Shown here piece after piece: positions 18,001 to 39,000 of a DNA stretch of 64,000 nucleotides. The position numbers are program-made. The stretch covers positions 106,826,001 through 106,890,000 of the forward strand of contig OX597821.1 of the NCBI GenBank assembly GCA_951406725.2, in the 5' to 3' direction. The first letter of the stretch is position 1. Each line of letters starts with the position of its first letter. This DNA comes from Octopus vulgaris (taxonomy: Eukaryota).

Positions 18001-21000
18001 TAATAATAATAATAATAATAATAATAATAAAGTATGTAACCGTATACATTTTTACAAACCAAGGACGTTTAATGGACCTCTTTGACTCAAGTTAGAGGAG
18101 TGAGTATTATACGCAAAGTTTAGGTTTTTCAGAGGTACAGCGCCCTAACCATGCTCTGCGTTTTATACTCAAGTGCGGACTATACTCGAGGATATACGGT
18201 ATATATATATATGATGCACTTTAGAAGTTCTTTAGGCTAACGTTATAAGAAACATTCTCTTCTGTTTGGAATGTATTGAACTTAAAAGAAGATATTGTTT
18301 CAAGACTAAGCTTCATCGTAAACATCTCCCTTTAGTTGTTGACTTCGCTGATGAATTTTACTAAAAATGAGTTGTCTCCTGTTATATTCCATGGTGAACA
18401 TTTTTTCTAACTTATAGTGGAGTGTTTTGAATTCTTTTTATTTCTCTATGCTTTCATTTCATTGAATGACTCTGTCGTCGATGTATGTTTCCAGTTTTAT
18501 AGTATATGTTTGAAGAAAATATTTCTGAATATTCGTAGTCATATTTGTAATTCATAATCTTTACTTACCCCATAAGTAACATCTCAATAATTCAAATTTC
18601 CCTTTTTAAATATGATACTTGAAACTATTTTTCGCCATGGTTTCACCAGAAAAAAGTAATTCATATTTACAGCTGCATTTTCTTCAGATGGTACGGCTTC
18701 CGCGATGAAATTACAACGTATCGCTATAGAAACAAATTCCATCACCAAATATCAATCATGCTTGTCTATCGATTGCTAAACCAACCACAATCTTTGTTTT
18801 AGTTGCCATAAACATGCTGAAATCATCGGTAAATTTGCCACATCTACTGGTAGTGGTAAATTGCTTGACATTACACAACCGATTGACTTACCAACATTCC
18901 AACTGATGCGGCTACCGGCTGCCACACTTGTCACTGCAACTAGCGACGACCACTCAGGCTGCTATTGTTGCGAAAACCACCACGACCAGGTAACAAAGAA
19001 AATTAAACAAAACAACGGCAGCATGTGAATTTCGTAAAACAAAAAGTGAGATTGAAGAACTAATATCATGGAACATTGATGAAATACAATTTATTCATTT
19101 TTTGTTAAAATTTCATCATGACTAAATCGTTTTTCTACAGCAACCGAAACCGTTAGGATAAATTCTTACTTTTATTCAAGACAGTGCTCAGCCAATTGCA
19201 CGTTAATTTCACGAGCAGGCTGTGCCGTTGATCGGTTCAACTGGAACCCTCGTCGTCGAAACCGACGGAGTGCCATGATTATAGCAACATATAACAATAA
19301 TATATAAGCAAAAGCTCCGCTCGAAACGTTGATACCTCCTTCTTTCTTTCCTTTCCTGAGCGTCCAATAACACTATACTTGTTCCACGTCCTCGCTTTGT
19401 TGTGTTTTCTCTTTGTTCATGTTTGGATTAACCATATAATTAAGTATCTGGGTCTTACCACTCACGTTACCCATACATGCAATCATAGTTTGTTATCTGA
19501 GATTGAACTAACTGAGATAACCTATATCTACTAATTTCGTCCTTGCTGCATAAAATGACATCTGCATCTATTTGAAATAAAAGGAATCTTTGCCTTGAAA
19601 TATTTTTTCTCACTTTGATGCACATACATATTGTAAAGTAAATTAAAACTGAACTCAGTAAGTGGTTTCATTATGATATTTTATTTCTAGAATATACGAA
19701 AGATTAAGTTTGAAAATGCAAGGTTGAGCATTTATAATGTATTTTCTGTAATATATTGGTGTTATTTATTTATGTAAATGAGAAAAAGTGACAAGTAGAA
19801 CATGTGCAGATGTGGTAGCAGGAAAATTACAATAGAGACGGAAAAATCATTTTGTGAATATATATATTTTTATACAATTTTACTTAAAAGATGGCGGACA
19901 GTTATAAATAATCCAGCAGAAAAATCAATGGCTACATGACTGATAATAAAGAGTATAGAATCATCCTGAGGTTTCACCGGTAGAAGGCGTTCCAACTCGC
20001 TTCAGCATTACCCATCTTTACCTTTTAAGAGAAAATTATCTTGCTTGAGAAAGTGCAGATGTGCCCAGGTTCCAAAGGCATTTAATGGTGAAATAGTGAG
20101 GTAGTGCTGCTAAAGGCGTCTTCGTACTGAATTTACTTACAATCGAAAATGTATAATAAAATGAGACATCGTTTATAATGGCTTTGTCTGAATTACCACA
20201 AGTATGTAAGTAATGAAACTTCCAATCATCTGAAAAACAGAAAAGAGACGTTATATATGTGCTATTTTCAGTGAATGAAGAGAATTATACGGATTGAAGG
20301 TCATTATGTACTACTTATACTAGAAAAATAAGCTGGTTGTTTCAGTTAAGCAACCGCAAGTTTTGGGCACTAAACATTTAGGTCATGATTTCAAGATCTT
20401 CTGATATATTCGTTACCGAATTTCATTAAGGTGCCCATAAAGTATTATGGTTGAGTCAGGTGTGCGACTGAACCTCGAATCGAAATGTTAAGCAGGCAGA
20501 TTTTGCTCTGTGCAGTATGACCGACAGAATGTCAAGACTGGTAACGTTTGAACTCAAAAGATAAACGGTTGTAGCAGAATATTGCAAACGTTTTATAAAA
20601 TCAGGAAGTATAAAACGCATTTCATTGCAAAGTTTTTTTTTTAAAAAGCTATATCTCTGCCCAAAAAAGTAACAAAGCATATAACAAATACATTCTCCTT
20701 TGCAATATTTTCCTTCCGATTTATTTGAAATTCAATTCTTTAATTGTATTATATACTCTTTTTATTTTTATTATTCGCGTTTTATTTCTTATTTATCGCT
20801 GTGTTTGAAGTTCTTTCACGATATTTCATGAGTCACTAATAAACCAAATACATTTTGAACTTAAAATAGCTAATGAAAATGTTGATGTATTTCAGCAAGG
20901 GTTTCAGTGGGATGTCTTGAAAATTGCGTAAGCGGTGGCTTTCCAGAAGCTGGCCCAGCTACAATGGGTCTTAAGGTTAAGTCCTCTGGCGTTTGGATAG

Positions 21001-36000: not shown

Positions 36001-39000
36001 ATAAATTTGTGAGATTTTAATGACGTTGTATTCGCAAACGATTTCCAAATATTTATTTTACGATAAAATTTCAGCAATTTAAAGATTTGTGTTTCATTTG
36101 ATTTCATGCTTATTCTAATTTTGTGACATCCAGAAAATTCTTCCCATTTAGCAAACGAAATCCTTAGAATAGAAGAAGCAGGTTTTATATCTTAATGAGT
36201 TTAATAATCCTTGTATGTGGAATTATAATATAAATTATTAAAATCCAGGTATACAAAATAGACAGATGCTTGATATTAATTTTGATATTTCATTTAGATA
36301 AAATTTCACTAGAGAAAATATGTCTGCAATTAATTTCGGGGGAATCACTAAGATTCTAATATATATGTGCTCCCATGGAGATGTTAGATTGTTATGGGGA
36401 AAAAAAAGTTGCATATAATTTGCCACACAATATATTTTCTATTCAAAAGGAAATAGATTTGATTAACTTCAGTAAGAAGCATTGACTGTCGACTGCATAC
36501 ACCGGTACAGTTGCTTGTATGAATAAATTTTTAATCTATGAAAAAAGCTATTAGTCCTTATATTCGATAAATATACGTCTGTATATGTTGTTTTGCTAGT
36601 GTTACCTGCATGTATATACATATAAATATATATACATATATATATATATATATATATATATATATATATATATATATATATAGTAAAAGCAATTAAGATT
36701 AAAGTCAGTTCTATTGAATTCACTTGAATGCGGTACTTAACTTAGATGCACCAGAAAACTATATGGTATTAACTATACAATAATGTGGGGGGATTATAAA
36801 CGAGAAAAAAGCAACAATAATGGACTAGTTTTTCAGTACAATTGTTTCATACAAAAACAAGCTTTATTAAAAGCTGCAAATAGTGCAGCAAATACAAGTG
36901 TCCCGTACTCATCAGCCAAAACACATATGAGTTCTCCAAGCATCATAGTGGGTGAGGCTACACTCATGAAGTATCGGAGATAGTTCTATAAAATGCAAAT
37001 TTTGGTTGTAAGCAGACTCCCAAAGTTCTCTAATGATGATGCACAGTCTTATAACAGGTTTTAAAAAAGTTTGTTAGCTTCACAGAGAAGGTGAATCAAT
37101 CCATAATGTAGGTGCAAATTACCGGAGATATGAGGAGATATTTCATACTCACAGACGATGAATCTATCCCTGATTAATCCACAATAAGGTGGGTATGATT
37201 TCCTGCTATATGATAAGATACTTGTCACACATCTGTTCATTTCACAAAACTGCTATGTTAGAATTATAAAGGCTGAAGAATTTTGTGGAGCAAAGAAAAG
37301 AAAAAGAAAAAGAAAAACCGCCCACATAGAGCATACTGGTATAACTGAGAGGGAAGAGGTCGCAGGTACCCATCTACACAGAAAAGTCTCTTTCTGTGGA
37401 GACAGACAGTCTGGCTTAGAATTTGCAGGAATCTAAGAATTATAAAGGAGAACATTATTTTTGACCAGTATACAGCTTCTAATTGCCAATCCGACGGAGC
37501 TAAAGCAGATATAAGAATTTAAAGAGAACAAGGGAAGGGATAAAGGGGTCAAAGGCTATCATAAGAGGAAAATACATTAAGAGAAATAAGTGCAATACTA
37601 GAAGGAGGTCATTTAATTAATTTATTTATTATTGTTACTGTTTATATTATTGTTACTGTTTATACAATGACAGACTGTAGGTCTATACCTAGAGGTCATT
37701 TACAAGGTGTGAGAGAATTGCTTATCATATTGAAATTTCTTATACTACTTTTAAGGGAGTTGCATTACTTATTTAACTTTATAATAGAATTATGAAGTAT
37801 TAGTAACTTATTTGATTTAAGTTGTGTTACCTAAATTAGATTAAAATTAGATTAAATTAAATTAAATTAACTATATAGTCAATTAAACTTTTTTAGGCAA
37901 CGCACAAATACTATTTATTCCTTTATGTTCAAAATCAGGTGCAGTTAGAAAGAAAGAAATAACCATGGTGTAAGAGCTCGCAGTTATTTATTAAAAAAAA
38001 TATTAGAGTTTTGTTTTACTAGTAAAAGCAAGATAGATCTATCTCCATACGATTATCCTATACGGTTTTTATTTAAAATATTTTAGAGTCTTCATTTTAG
38101 CGTGAATAAAAGATTGACCCAGTTCTATATGGTTATTTAACAAATTCCTATTTTTCCTATGCATTAGAATTTCATACGTCTCCATGGAGCAGAGTTGGCA
38201 ACCAACCCTGTTATTTTTATAAGGCATTGCTCTTCTTACTATTTCCCAATCAAGGTTATATTTAATATTATTATTTTTGAGTTCCCAGATCTTACTTGAA
38301 AATGTGGTGGTACCAGCTTTATGACGTAACTTAAAAGAGGAGATATGATTGCTAACTCTTTTCCTAAAATTTATAGTACAACCTAAATAAAGAAATTTGC
38401 TATCCTCAGTAGTTATGGTACATTTATAGATTACGTTACTTACCCCGCACAGACAAGGTGCCGGGAATTTTGACCTAATTCTACAATTACACGTAGGGGG
38501 ATCATCTTCAGATGTTGGATTATTTATGGATAGATGTCTCATGTTCTTGCTATTCTGATTATCATGAGTATATTTATCGTTATTATTATTATTATTATAG
38601 TTAATGTTGCTATCTAAAGCAGTGTTATCATTTATCGATCCTTTTACACTATCATTTAGTTCTAATGTCCTACCATGATTACTTACATTATTGGTATTGT
38701 TACTATTATTGCTAGTATTTGTATCCGAATGTATATTGTTGTTATAGATATCAATGATGTCTTCATTCCCTGTATTTTCTCTATTAGCATTACTCCTATC
38801 ATTAACATTATTACTCCTATTAATATTAATATTATTATTAGTTTTTGATTCTACCTATGTTTTGATAGTCACTATTGTTGCGTATATTGCTTTTATTTTT
38901 GATAGTATTATTACAATTGTTATTGGTATTCATATTGGTATTATTTTTATCTTTCCTGGCTAGCTTAATGTTATTATTATTAATCTTAGCTATTAAAGTG

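What the first reader, a model, noticed from the sequence alone, without database searches (positions are those of the whole stretch)
20173..36189. GR-like receptor locus with alternative large first exons spliced to one shared set of C-terminal exons
Seen, reading the minus strand: promoter+exon B (36.1-35.2 kb), promoter+exon A (29.2-28.2 kb), then three small exons (23.0, 22.0, 20.2 kb). A and B are highly diverged paralogues, yet both reconstruct to 317 codons and end at LNKS on a phase-0 GT donor. Either one joins exon 2 in frame to give a 388-aa protein ending GSFITYILVVIQ. I found no C-terminal exons between B and A in either unit. Established: Drosophila Gr28b and Gr39a use variable N-terminal exons with shared C-terminal exons, and vertebrate clustered protocadherins use similar logic. 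In GR/OR channels the C-terminal helix forms the pore and subunit contacts, while ligand pockets lie in the earlier helices. Inference: a mollusc (likely octopus) chemoreceptor system that swaps ligand-binding modules onto a constant pore module by promoter choice. I do not know of this being described in cephalopods.
Basis: partly seen in the sequence, partly recalled or inferred. Interest (0 to 1): 0.93.

Follow-up and report, generated by a model that had tools for sequence, protein, structure and literature searches.

The report
Decayed octopus taste-receptor-like gene unit
This is one unit of a tandem array of octopus genes related to insect taste receptors, laid out like the fly gene Gr39a with two alternative large first exons ahead of three shared small exons, but in this unit both large exons are broken, so it is most likely a dead copy.

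Summary
The layout is real. On the minus strand, two diverged large exons, B (36107-35156) and A (29169-28241), each have an ATG and a consensus phase-0 donor after LNKS. They lie upstream of three small phase-0 exons (23073-23005, 22095-22006, 20229-20173). tBLASTn and a family profile HMM found no private C-terminal exons between B and A.

The "317 codons" are a repair, though. As they stand, A has a 1-nt deletion plus an in-frame TAA, and B has a frameshift plus an in-frame TAG. Repaired, A is 310 codons, not 317. The downstream duplicates A' and B' are also broken, and A/A' and B/B' differ as neutral DNA would (dN/dS 2.1 and 0.69).

The family is GR-like: it matches Pfam 7tm_7, carries the TY-x5-Q motif in TM7, and a modelled relative has the insect OR/GR fold.

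A third constant-exon set (54.6-51.4 kb) encodes exactly the C-terminus of Octopus sinensis RefSeq LOC118764608 isoform X1. Isoforms X2 and X4 of neighbouring LOC118764607 join different first exons to one C-terminus, so RefSeq already models the architecture.

Verdict: a pseudogenised unit of a Gr39a-like alternative-first-exon GRL array. It is a new member of a known kind. No RNA data could be checked here.

The parts
35156..36107 (-). Variable first exon B (pseudo-exon). ATG at 36107, donor GTAAGT after 35156, 952 nt. Encodes TM1-TM6 by homology.
   Evidence: Pfam 7tm_7 E=5.6e-4, 19.8 bits, on piece 35866-35210.
35856..35857 (-). Probable site of B's frameshift. B is 2 nt longer here than B', and both are out of frame in opposite directions.
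   Evidence: alignment. The reading frames change between 35866 and 35793.
35207..35209 (-). In-frame TAG in exon B. B' has TAT (Tyr) here.
28241..29169 (-). Variable first exon A (pseudo-exon). ATG at 29169, donor GTGAGT after 28241, 929 nt.
28917..28918 (-). 1-nt deletion in A relative to A'. A' has an extra T here and stays in frame.
   Evidence: A' has an open frame 3190-2621 across this site.
28808..28810 (-). In-frame TAA in exon A. A' has TCA (Ser), and two relatives, P0011 and P0017, have Ser here.
23005..23073 (-). Constant exon 2, 23 codons (VHSITQSIHYMQFQGVDQEVVAK), phase 0 at both ends. An inner acceptor at 23031 would give 9 codons.
22006..22095 (-). Constant exon 3, 30 codons (TM7a and loop).
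20173..20229 (-). Constant exon 4, 18 codons plus TAA (MIGSFITYILVVIQTKPL*). Encodes TM7b with the TY-x5-Q motif.
9189..10138 (-). B', the downstream duplicate of B, 950 nt. Its only lesion is a frameshift at the T6 run 9888-9883.
2389..3163 (-). A', the downstream duplicate of A. ATG is changed to ATC, and 155 nt are deleted (A positions 28674-28520).
51386..54658 (-). Constant exons of the upstream unit (54658-54590, 53665-53576, 51442-51386). Together they encode 71 of 71 residues of the C-terminus of RefSeq LOC118764608 isoform X1.
29272..29278 (-). TATAAAA 103 nt upstream of A's ATG. Another lies at 36183-36189, 76 nt upstream of B's ATG.
   Evidence: Motif count 84 against 73.7 expected, so not evidence of a promoter.

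Best explanation
The window holds about two and a half units of a tandem array of octopus GR-like (7TMIC) receptor genes. Each unit is built like Drosophila Gr39a. It has two anciently diverged large 5' exons (B, then A), each with its own ATG and a phase-0 donor, encoding TM1 to most of TM6. These are followed by one block of three small phase-0 exons encoding the end of TM6, TM7a and the pore-lining TM7b.

In the ancestral unit, a transcript starting at B or at A would splice its donor to the single acceptor of exon 2, giving two receptors with one constant C-terminal module. That step is inferred.

The unit named in the finding has since died. A carries a 1-nt deletion and a TCA>TAA change. 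B carries a frameshift and a TAT>TAG change. The exons have drifted neutrally since the unit was duplicated. So the unit is a pseudogene copy, not a working receptor-swapping system. The working examples, if any, are neighbouring genes such as LOC118764608 and LOC118764607.
For: Shown:
- Exon coordinates, splice sites and phases.
- Lesions. A has a 1-nt gap and TAA where A' has T and TCA. B has TAG where B' has TAT, and the B/B' indel leaves both out of frame. A' has ATG>ATC and a 155-nt deletion. Exon lengths are 929, 952 and 950 nt.
- Neutral drift. A/A' has 20.5 nonsynonymous against 2.5 synonymous differences (dN/dS 2.1). B/B' has 28 against 10 (dN/dS 0.69). Exon divergence is about 4%, like the flanks at 4-6%.
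- Tandem units. 1-10702 matches 25877-36682, 14599-23203 matches 47026-54788, and 61875-64000 matches 26154-27941.
- Only two constant-exon sets and four large exons occur in the window.
- Family. B piece scores 19.8 bits against 7tm_7, relative P0004 scores 30.3 bits (cut-off 26.6), and 15 of 27 family members match 7tm_7, best E 7.4e-23. The AF2 model of P0001 has pLDDT 89.5, and all 23 PDB matches with E<=1e-3 are insect OR, Orco or GR.
- Constant exons map to residues 319-389, that is the end of helix 288-327, helix 336-351 and helix 366-385.
- RefSeq names X2 (P0006) and X4 (P0004) as isoforms of one gene with different first exons and the same C-terminus. P0013 carries another first-exon tail on the C-terminus of P0001.
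- A groups with P0011 and P0016 (support 100/98) and B/B' stand alone, so A and B are old, separate exon lineages.

Inferred:
- B kept a nearly open 317-codon frame although it is only about 35% identical to A and has no private 3' exons. That is best explained if it was used with the shared exons until about the time of the unit duplication.
Against: - No transcript data were seen, so neither past nor present splicing of B across A to exon 2 is shown.
- Two of the lesions (A's 1-nt deletion and B's or B' indel) lie in short T runs and could be long-read assembly errors. B' would be intact with one more T.
- The constant exons of this unit differ from the upstream set at only 2 of 216 nt, against about 9 expected from the flanks (hand Poisson p about 0.005 if both sets were neutral). 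So something may still constrain them, or gene conversion homogenises them.
- RefSeq isoform models are automatic predictions whose evidence I could not inspect.
- Identical C-termini alone do not prove shared exons, because tandem units carry near-identical constant sets.
Confidence: 0.65

Rival explanations
1. This is a working alternative-first-exon receptor gene. On this reading the frameshifts and stops are assembly errors or are bypassed, and A and B each give a full receptor of about 381-388 aa.
For: The 1-nt indels sit in T runs. All splice sites are consensus. The constant exons are nearly identical to those of an annotated gene.
Against: - Each of A and B also carries a nonsense substitution, which is not a typical long-read error.
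- dN/dS is about 1 or above.
- A' has lost its ATG and 155 nt.
- No database protein carries an A-like or B-like exon above 62% identity.
- A-to-I editing could in principle turn UAG into UGG but cannot mend a frameshift. That is inference and was not tested.
Confidence: 0.07
2. B was never an alternative exon. It is the orphan 5' part of a once-complete tandem gene whose own three small exons were deleted, and only A ever used exons 2-4.
For: No transcript evidence exists for a B-to-exon-2 junction. Birth-and-death turnover is evident in the array. B/B' may share an old frameshift site.
Against: - B' has a single 1-nt lesion in 317 codons, although B and A are only about 35% identical. An orphan would have decayed unless the deletion was recent.
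- The same B-A-constant layout is present in two units.
- RefSeq models two first exons on one C-terminal block in the neighbouring gene.
Confidence: 0.2
3. The constant exons of this unit are still used. Intact variable exons of the upstream unit (beyond 64 kb) would reach them through read-through transcription, so the array would act as one larger variable/constant cluster.
For: The constant exons of this unit keep perfect splice sites and differ from the upstream set at only 2 of 216 nt, while flanks differ at 4-9%.
Against: - If only the upstream set is constrained, about 4.7 differences are expected, and seeing 2 is unremarkable (hand Poisson p about 0.15).
- Gene conversion would explain the similarity as well.
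- The upstream unit has its own constant exons in between.
Confidence: 0.05

Closest known systems
Drosophila Gr39a (also Gr28b, Gr23a): alternatively spliced gustatory receptor genes
   Same: [quoted passage not shown] The first acceptor appears only at the start of the small-exon block.
- Pseudo-exons with frameshifts, stops and deletions are documented (PMC2204066, abstract and passages read).
- The octopus unit has the same layout and the same number of small exons.
- The family has the same fold.
   Different: - It is in a mollusc, not an arthropod.
- It has only two variable exons per unit.
- The whole unit is itself tandemly repeated.
- All four variable exons seen here are broken.
- No expression data exist.
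- Sequence identity to insect GR and OR structures is 10-14%.
RefSeq models LOC118764608 and LOC118764607 (Octopus sinensis) and LOC106880719 (O. bimaculoides), all named 'uncharacterized protein'
   Same: - Same family, 38-47% identity to A and B in the first exon.
- The C-terminus of LOC118764608 X1 is encoded letter for letter by the upstream constant exons in this window.
- Isoforms X2 and X4 of LOC118764607 carry different first exons on one C-terminus.
   Different: - Those models have open frames. The unit in the finding does not.
- Their first exons are not in this window.
- I could not see their transcript evidence or genomic coordinates.
Clustered protocadherins and UGT1A (variable first exons with own promoters, shared constant exons)
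   Same: The general logic is the same: many 5' exons, one constant 3' block. This comparison is recalled, not tested.
   Different: The protein family is unrelated. Promoter choice is shown there and is untested here, and here there are only two variable exons per unit.
Octopus chemotactile receptors (CRs)
   Same: Both are candidate cephalopod chemosensory ion channels.
   Different: CRs are pentameric receptors like nicotinic acetylcholine receptors (PMC11526382 and PMC12635824, passages read). The present family has the insect OR/GR 7TM fold.

Membership tests
GR / GR-like (7TMIC superfamily; Pfam 7tm_7 PF08395) | Sequence match to Pfam 7tm_7 at or above the gathering score, by the window's own exons | tested here: inconclusive
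   Of the 5 A, B and B' pieces scanned, only B piece 35866-35210 matched 7tm_7: E=5.6e-4, 19.8 bits, below the cut-off of 26.6.
GR / GR-like (7TMIC superfamily; Pfam 7tm_7 PF08395) | Sequence match to 7tm_7 by close and distant relatives of the window's exons | tested here: met
   P0004 scores 30.3 bits (cut-off 26.6) and P0005 25.1 bits. Of 27 family members, 15 match 7tm_7 (best E 7.4e-23), 10 match Trehalose_recp and 3 match 7tm_6.
GR / GR-like (7TMIC superfamily; Pfam 7tm_7 PF08395) | TM7 motif TYhhhhhQF near the C-terminus (the motif is recalled, not taken from a call) | tested here: met
   Exon 4 encodes TYILVVIQT: TY, five hydrophobic residues, then Q, with T in place of F. In the 18 aligned C-termini, the window-related family has QT while many distant relatives (e.g. 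P0024, P0026, P0028, P0030) have QF.
GR / GR-like (7TMIC superfamily; Pfam 7tm_7 PF08395) | Insect OR/GR seven-helix fold | tested here: met
   Tested on relative P0001, whose last 71 residues are encoded in the window. The AF2 model has pLDDT 89.5 and pTM 0.87. All 23 PDB matches with E<=1e-3 are OR, Orco or GR chains, TM-score 0.50-0.68. A sequence-only PDB search found 0 hits.
GR / GR-like (7TMIC superfamily; Pfam 7tm_7 PF08395) | Forms a ligand-gated tetrameric cation channel | not testable with these tools
   No assay was possible, and the window's own exons are broken.
Gr39a-type alternative-first-exon receptor gene | Two or more large 5' exons, each with its own ATG and 5' donor at the same phase | tested here: met
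   A and B both have an ATG and a phase-0 GT donor after LNKS.
Gr39a-type alternative-first-exon receptor gene | One shared block of three small exons, with no private block between the large exons | tested here: met
   tBLASTn and a profile HMM find only the blocks at 23.1-20.2 kb and 54.7-51.4 kb. Best score between B and A is E 2.2.
Gr39a-type alternative-first-exon receptor gene | Open reading frames in the variable exons | tested here: not met
   0 of the 4 large exons in the window are open.
Gr39a-type alternative-first-exon receptor gene | Transcripts joining each large exon to the shared block | not testable with these tools
   No RNA data. Indirect only: RefSeq isoforms X2 and X4 of LOC118764607.
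Gr39a-type alternative-first-exon receptor gene | Own promoter for each variable exon | tested here: inconclusive
   TATAAAA lies 76 and 103 nt upstream of the ATGs, but the motif occurs 84 times against 73.7 expected.

The most novel reading that the evidence does not exclude
Octopus GR-like genes form tandem arrays of Gr39a-like units. In the intact units, promoter or first-exon choice puts different TM1-TM6 ligand-binding modules onto one constant TM7 pore and anchor module. This would be an arrangement shared with, or convergent on, arthropod GRs. It would give cephalopods a second, undescribed family of candidate chemosensory channels besides the nicotinic-like chemotactile receptors. The unit in this window would be a recently dead member that records the architecture.
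Probability: 0.5. Interest if true: 0.65.

Novelty: new member of a known kind. Interest (0 to 1): 0.4.

Why it matters
If the intact neighbours really use alternative first exons, the Gr39a-type gene design extends from arthropods to molluscs: variable ligand-binding exons on a constant three-exon TM7 block. That would mean the design is either very old or arises readily from the family's conserved C-terminal introns.

It would also flag a small GR-like family in octopus as candidate sensory channels. I found no paper describing this.

For genome annotation, the practical point is that this unit should be treated as a pseudogene. No 388-aa protein should be inferred from it.

Tried and rejected
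- **Private constant exons between B and A or between B' and A'.** tBLASTn with the three small exons and a profile HMM of 18 diverse family C-termini against all six frames found none. The best hits (34544-34491 and 34065-34012, with their copies at 8578 and 8099) are a local repeat without the TM7 motif.
- **A tiny intron to explain the frame change.** Rejected. The frame-a and frame-b similarity to B are only 26-28 nt apart, no GT..AG pair of workable size is present, and A' reads straight through A's site in one frame.
- **More first exons elsewhere in the window.** tBLASTn with 40 family proteins found only A, B, A' and B'.
- **Pfam on the A pieces and the N-terminal pieces.** No 7tm_7 match.
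- **PDB search by sequence with P0001.** 0 hits.
- **Names and accessions of P0007-P0040.** So the species and gene of P0013 and the others stay unknown.
- **Background papers.** Robertson 2015 (Chem Senses) and Robertson 2003 (PNAS) are not held. Statements about ancestral phase-0 introns and the TYhhhhhQF motif are recalled.
- **RNA editing as a rescue of the stops.** Considered and set aside, because it cannot mend the frameshifts. This is inference.
- **Joined models.** Each exon was searched on its own.
- **Not available.** No eukaryotic genome DNA collection was on hand. Paper supplements were closed and not consulted.
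Full report
**What is in the sequence**

Reading the minus strand, there are two large exon-like blocks.
- B starts at ATG 36107 and ends at 35156, followed by GTAAGT.
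- A starts at ATG 29169 and ends at 28241, followed by GTGAGT.
- Both end in ...LNKS on a phase-0 donor.

Three small exons lie downstream:
- 23073-23005, 23 codons.
- 22095-22006, 30 codons.
- 20229-20173, 18 codons plus TAA, encoding MIGSFITYILVVIQTKPL.
- All have polypyrimidine-AG acceptors, the first two have GTAAAT donors, and all introns are phase 0.

A and B are 33-38% identical at the protein level.

Neither large exon is open. ATG-to-donor lengths are 929 nt for A and 952 nt for B, and neither is divisible by 3.

The window also holds a second copy of each exon about 26 kb downstream: A' at 3163-2389 and B' at 10138-9189. These are about 95% identical in DNA to A and B. Aligning the copies shows the lesions one by one.
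- **A:** lacks one T between 28918 and 28917, where A' has it and stays in frame. It has TAA at 28810-28808, where A' has TCA and two relatives (P0011, P0017) have Ser.
- **A':** has ATC in place of the start ATG and lacks 155 nt (A positions 28674-28520).
- **B:** has TAG at 35209-35207, where B' has TAT.
- **B and B':** differ by a 2-nt indel at 35857-35856. B is left one base too long and B' one base too short.
- **B' otherwise:** it is open (frame 9923-9174). It would be intact with one more T in the T6 run 9888-9883.

After repair B is 317 codons, but A is 310, not 317. I looked for a small intron that could account for the frame change and found none. The two frames' similarity to the paralogue is only 26-28 nt apart, and A' reads straight through.

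**Are the exons under selection?**

- A against A': 20.5 nonsynonymous and 2.5 synonymous differences over 255 codons, dN/dS 2.1.
- B against B': 28 and 10 over 305 codons, dN/dS 0.69 overall, and 0.98 over the 225 codons downstream of the frameshift.
- Non-coding stretches between the same units show 257 mismatches and 23 gap openings in 5,896 aligned bases.
- So the exons, at about 4% divergence with 1-2 indels per pair, behave like the flanks.
- By hand, about 3.7 indels per exon pair would be expected under neutrality. Seeing 2 and 1 is compatible with that.

The lesions are mostly private to one copy. The A-type exon was therefore intact when the unit was duplicated, and the B-type exon was intact or nearly so. 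The decay is recent.

**Array structure**

Self-comparison shows three homologous segments:
- 1-10702 matches 25877-36682 at about 95%.
- 14599-23203 matches 47026-54788 at 92-95%.
- 61875-64000 matches 26154-27941 and 274-2084.

The window thus contains:
- the 3' part of an upstream unit, with constant exons at 54658-54590, 53665-53576 and 51442-51386;
- the complete unit of the finding;
- the 5' part of a downstream unit (B' and A').

tBLASTn with the small exons, tBLASTn with 40 family proteins, and a profile HMM built from 18 diverse family C-termini run against all six frames find only these two constant sets and four large exons. The best profile score between B and A has independent E 2.2. 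It lies in a local repeat that lacks the TM7 motif.

**What family it is**

I searched exon by exon.

- The B piece matches Pfam 7tm_7 weakly (E 5.6e-4, 19.8 bits, cut-off 26.6).
- The B' piece finds NCBI [quoted passage not shown] (P0001, 389 aa, 42% identity) and two unspliced first-exon ORFs from Logan contigs.
- The last 71 residues of P0001 equal, residue for residue, the translation of the upstream constant exons in this window. So the window is from O. sinensis or a very close relative.
- The first exon of P0001 is not in the window and must lie beyond 64 kb.
- An exhaustive profile search of 1.84 billion representatives found only 36 relatives with E<=1e-3.
- Of 27 members scanned, 15 match 7tm_7 (best E 7.4e-23), 10 match Trehalose_recp and 3 match 7tm_6.
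- Distant members carry ...TYxxVVxQF(K/R)P at the C-terminus, and they align with the long, 23-codon form of exon 2.
- An AlphaFold2 model of P0001 (pLDDT 89.5, pTM 0.87) matches only insect OR, Orco and GR structures among the 23 PDB hits with E<=1e-3, with TM-scores of 0.50-0.68.
- On that model the constant exons (residues 319-389) cover the end of helix 288-327, helix 336-351 and helix 366-385. In OR/GR terms this is the tail of TM6, TM7a and TM7b. That assignment is recalled from the published structures.

"GR-like" is therefore well supported for the family.

**Is the alternative-first-exon reading right?**

No transcript data were available for this unit, and both first exons are dead.

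1. A search with the constant part of P0001 returned LOC118764607 isoform X2 (P0006, 375 aa) and isoform X4 (P0004, 230 aa) of O. sinensis, and LOC106880719 isoform X2 of O. bimaculoides (P0005).
2. X2 and X4 are named by NCBI as products of one gene. They have clearly different first-exon sequences and end in the same DIKPEVVAK / ILVFLNRL... / MIGSFITYILVVIQTKSL.
3. P0013 (141 aa) carries yet another first-exon tail on exactly the C-terminus of P0001.
4. P0009 shows the X4-type exon with the long form of exon 2.
5. In a tree of first exons, A groups with P0011 and P0016 (support 100/98) and B/B' stand alone. A and B are therefore old, separate lineages, not recent copies of each other.
6. An exon as old as B, with no 3' exons of its own in either unit, would not have kept a 317-codon frame with a single 1-nt lesion (B') unless it was in use until recently. 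The only visible partner is the shared block. This last point is inference.

Several things weigh against this.
- RefSeq isoforms are automatic models whose evidence I could not inspect.
- Tandem units carry near-identical constant exons, so identical C-termini do not by themselves prove shared exons.

**Comparison with what is known**

[quoted passage not shown] Each large exon has its own start codon and donor, and the first acceptor comes at the start of the small-exon block. Pseudo-exons with frameshifts, stops and deletions are known in Gr39a, Gr28b and others (PMC2204066, abstract and passages).

The octopus unit repeats this design down to the number of small exons. It differs in four ways: it is in a mollusc, it has two variable exons, it is itself tandemly repeated, and here it is dead.

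GR-like genes are known in Mollusca (PMC7746228, passage read, which cites Robertson 2015 and Eyun 2017; I did not read either). Known cephalopod contact chemoreceptors are the unrelated nicotinic-like CRs (PMC11526382 and PMC12635824, passages).

Eight full-text searches found no paper describing octopus GR-like genes or their alternative exons. Subscription papers and supplements were not searchable.

**Verdict**

- The unit is best read as a recently pseudogenised member of a tandem array of Gr39a-like GR-like genes.
- It is a new member of a known kind, and the design is already implicit in RefSeq's automatic isoform models for the neighbouring genes.
- Interest is moderate. The architecture in a mollusc is worth a look with RNA data, but this locus itself encodes no receptor as it stands.

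Noticed in passing
window 23969-25284; 23372-24046 and 25226-25900: A 1.3-kb (AAT)n microsatellite of about 439 copies lies in the intron between exon A and exon 2. It is flanked by a 675-bp direct duplication at 99.3% identity.
   Followed up: no
window 56521-57003 (+) and 38069-38854 (-): ORFs with a GIY-YIG endonuclease domain (E 3.1e-7 and 2.9e-3). They are possibly remnants of Penelope-like retroelements between the receptor units. The Penelope link is recalled.
   Followed up: partly
window 23031 (inner acceptor of exon 2): Exon 2 has a second in-frame acceptor (tttcag|GGC) that would give 9 codons instead of 23. Database proteins of the family exist in both forms: short in P0004-P0006, long in P0001, P0009 and P0013. 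Distant relatives align with the long form, so the long form looks ancestral.
   Followed up: partly
window 34544-34491, 34065-34012, 8578-8525, 8099-8046 (-): A short repeated element, translating as ...NYMVIDDLSIFGIFGIRI..., occurs twice between B and A and twice between B' and A'. It gave the best, chance-level, profile hits there.
   Followed up: partly
window 40960-45779 versus 57798-61452: Several inverted repeat pairs at 82-89% identity lie between the region upstream of B and the region upstream of the upstream unit's exon 2. They are probably shared transposable elements.
   Followed up: no
window 45582-47108 (-): A 508-aa stop-free frame with no Pfam match. It may be low-complexity sequence.
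   Followed up: no
window 22095-22006 versus 53665-53576: The two constant-exon sets differ at only 2 of 216 nt, one of which changes Leu to Phe in exon 3. Their introns differ at 4-9%. This points to constraint on at least one set, or to gene conversion.
   Followed up: partly
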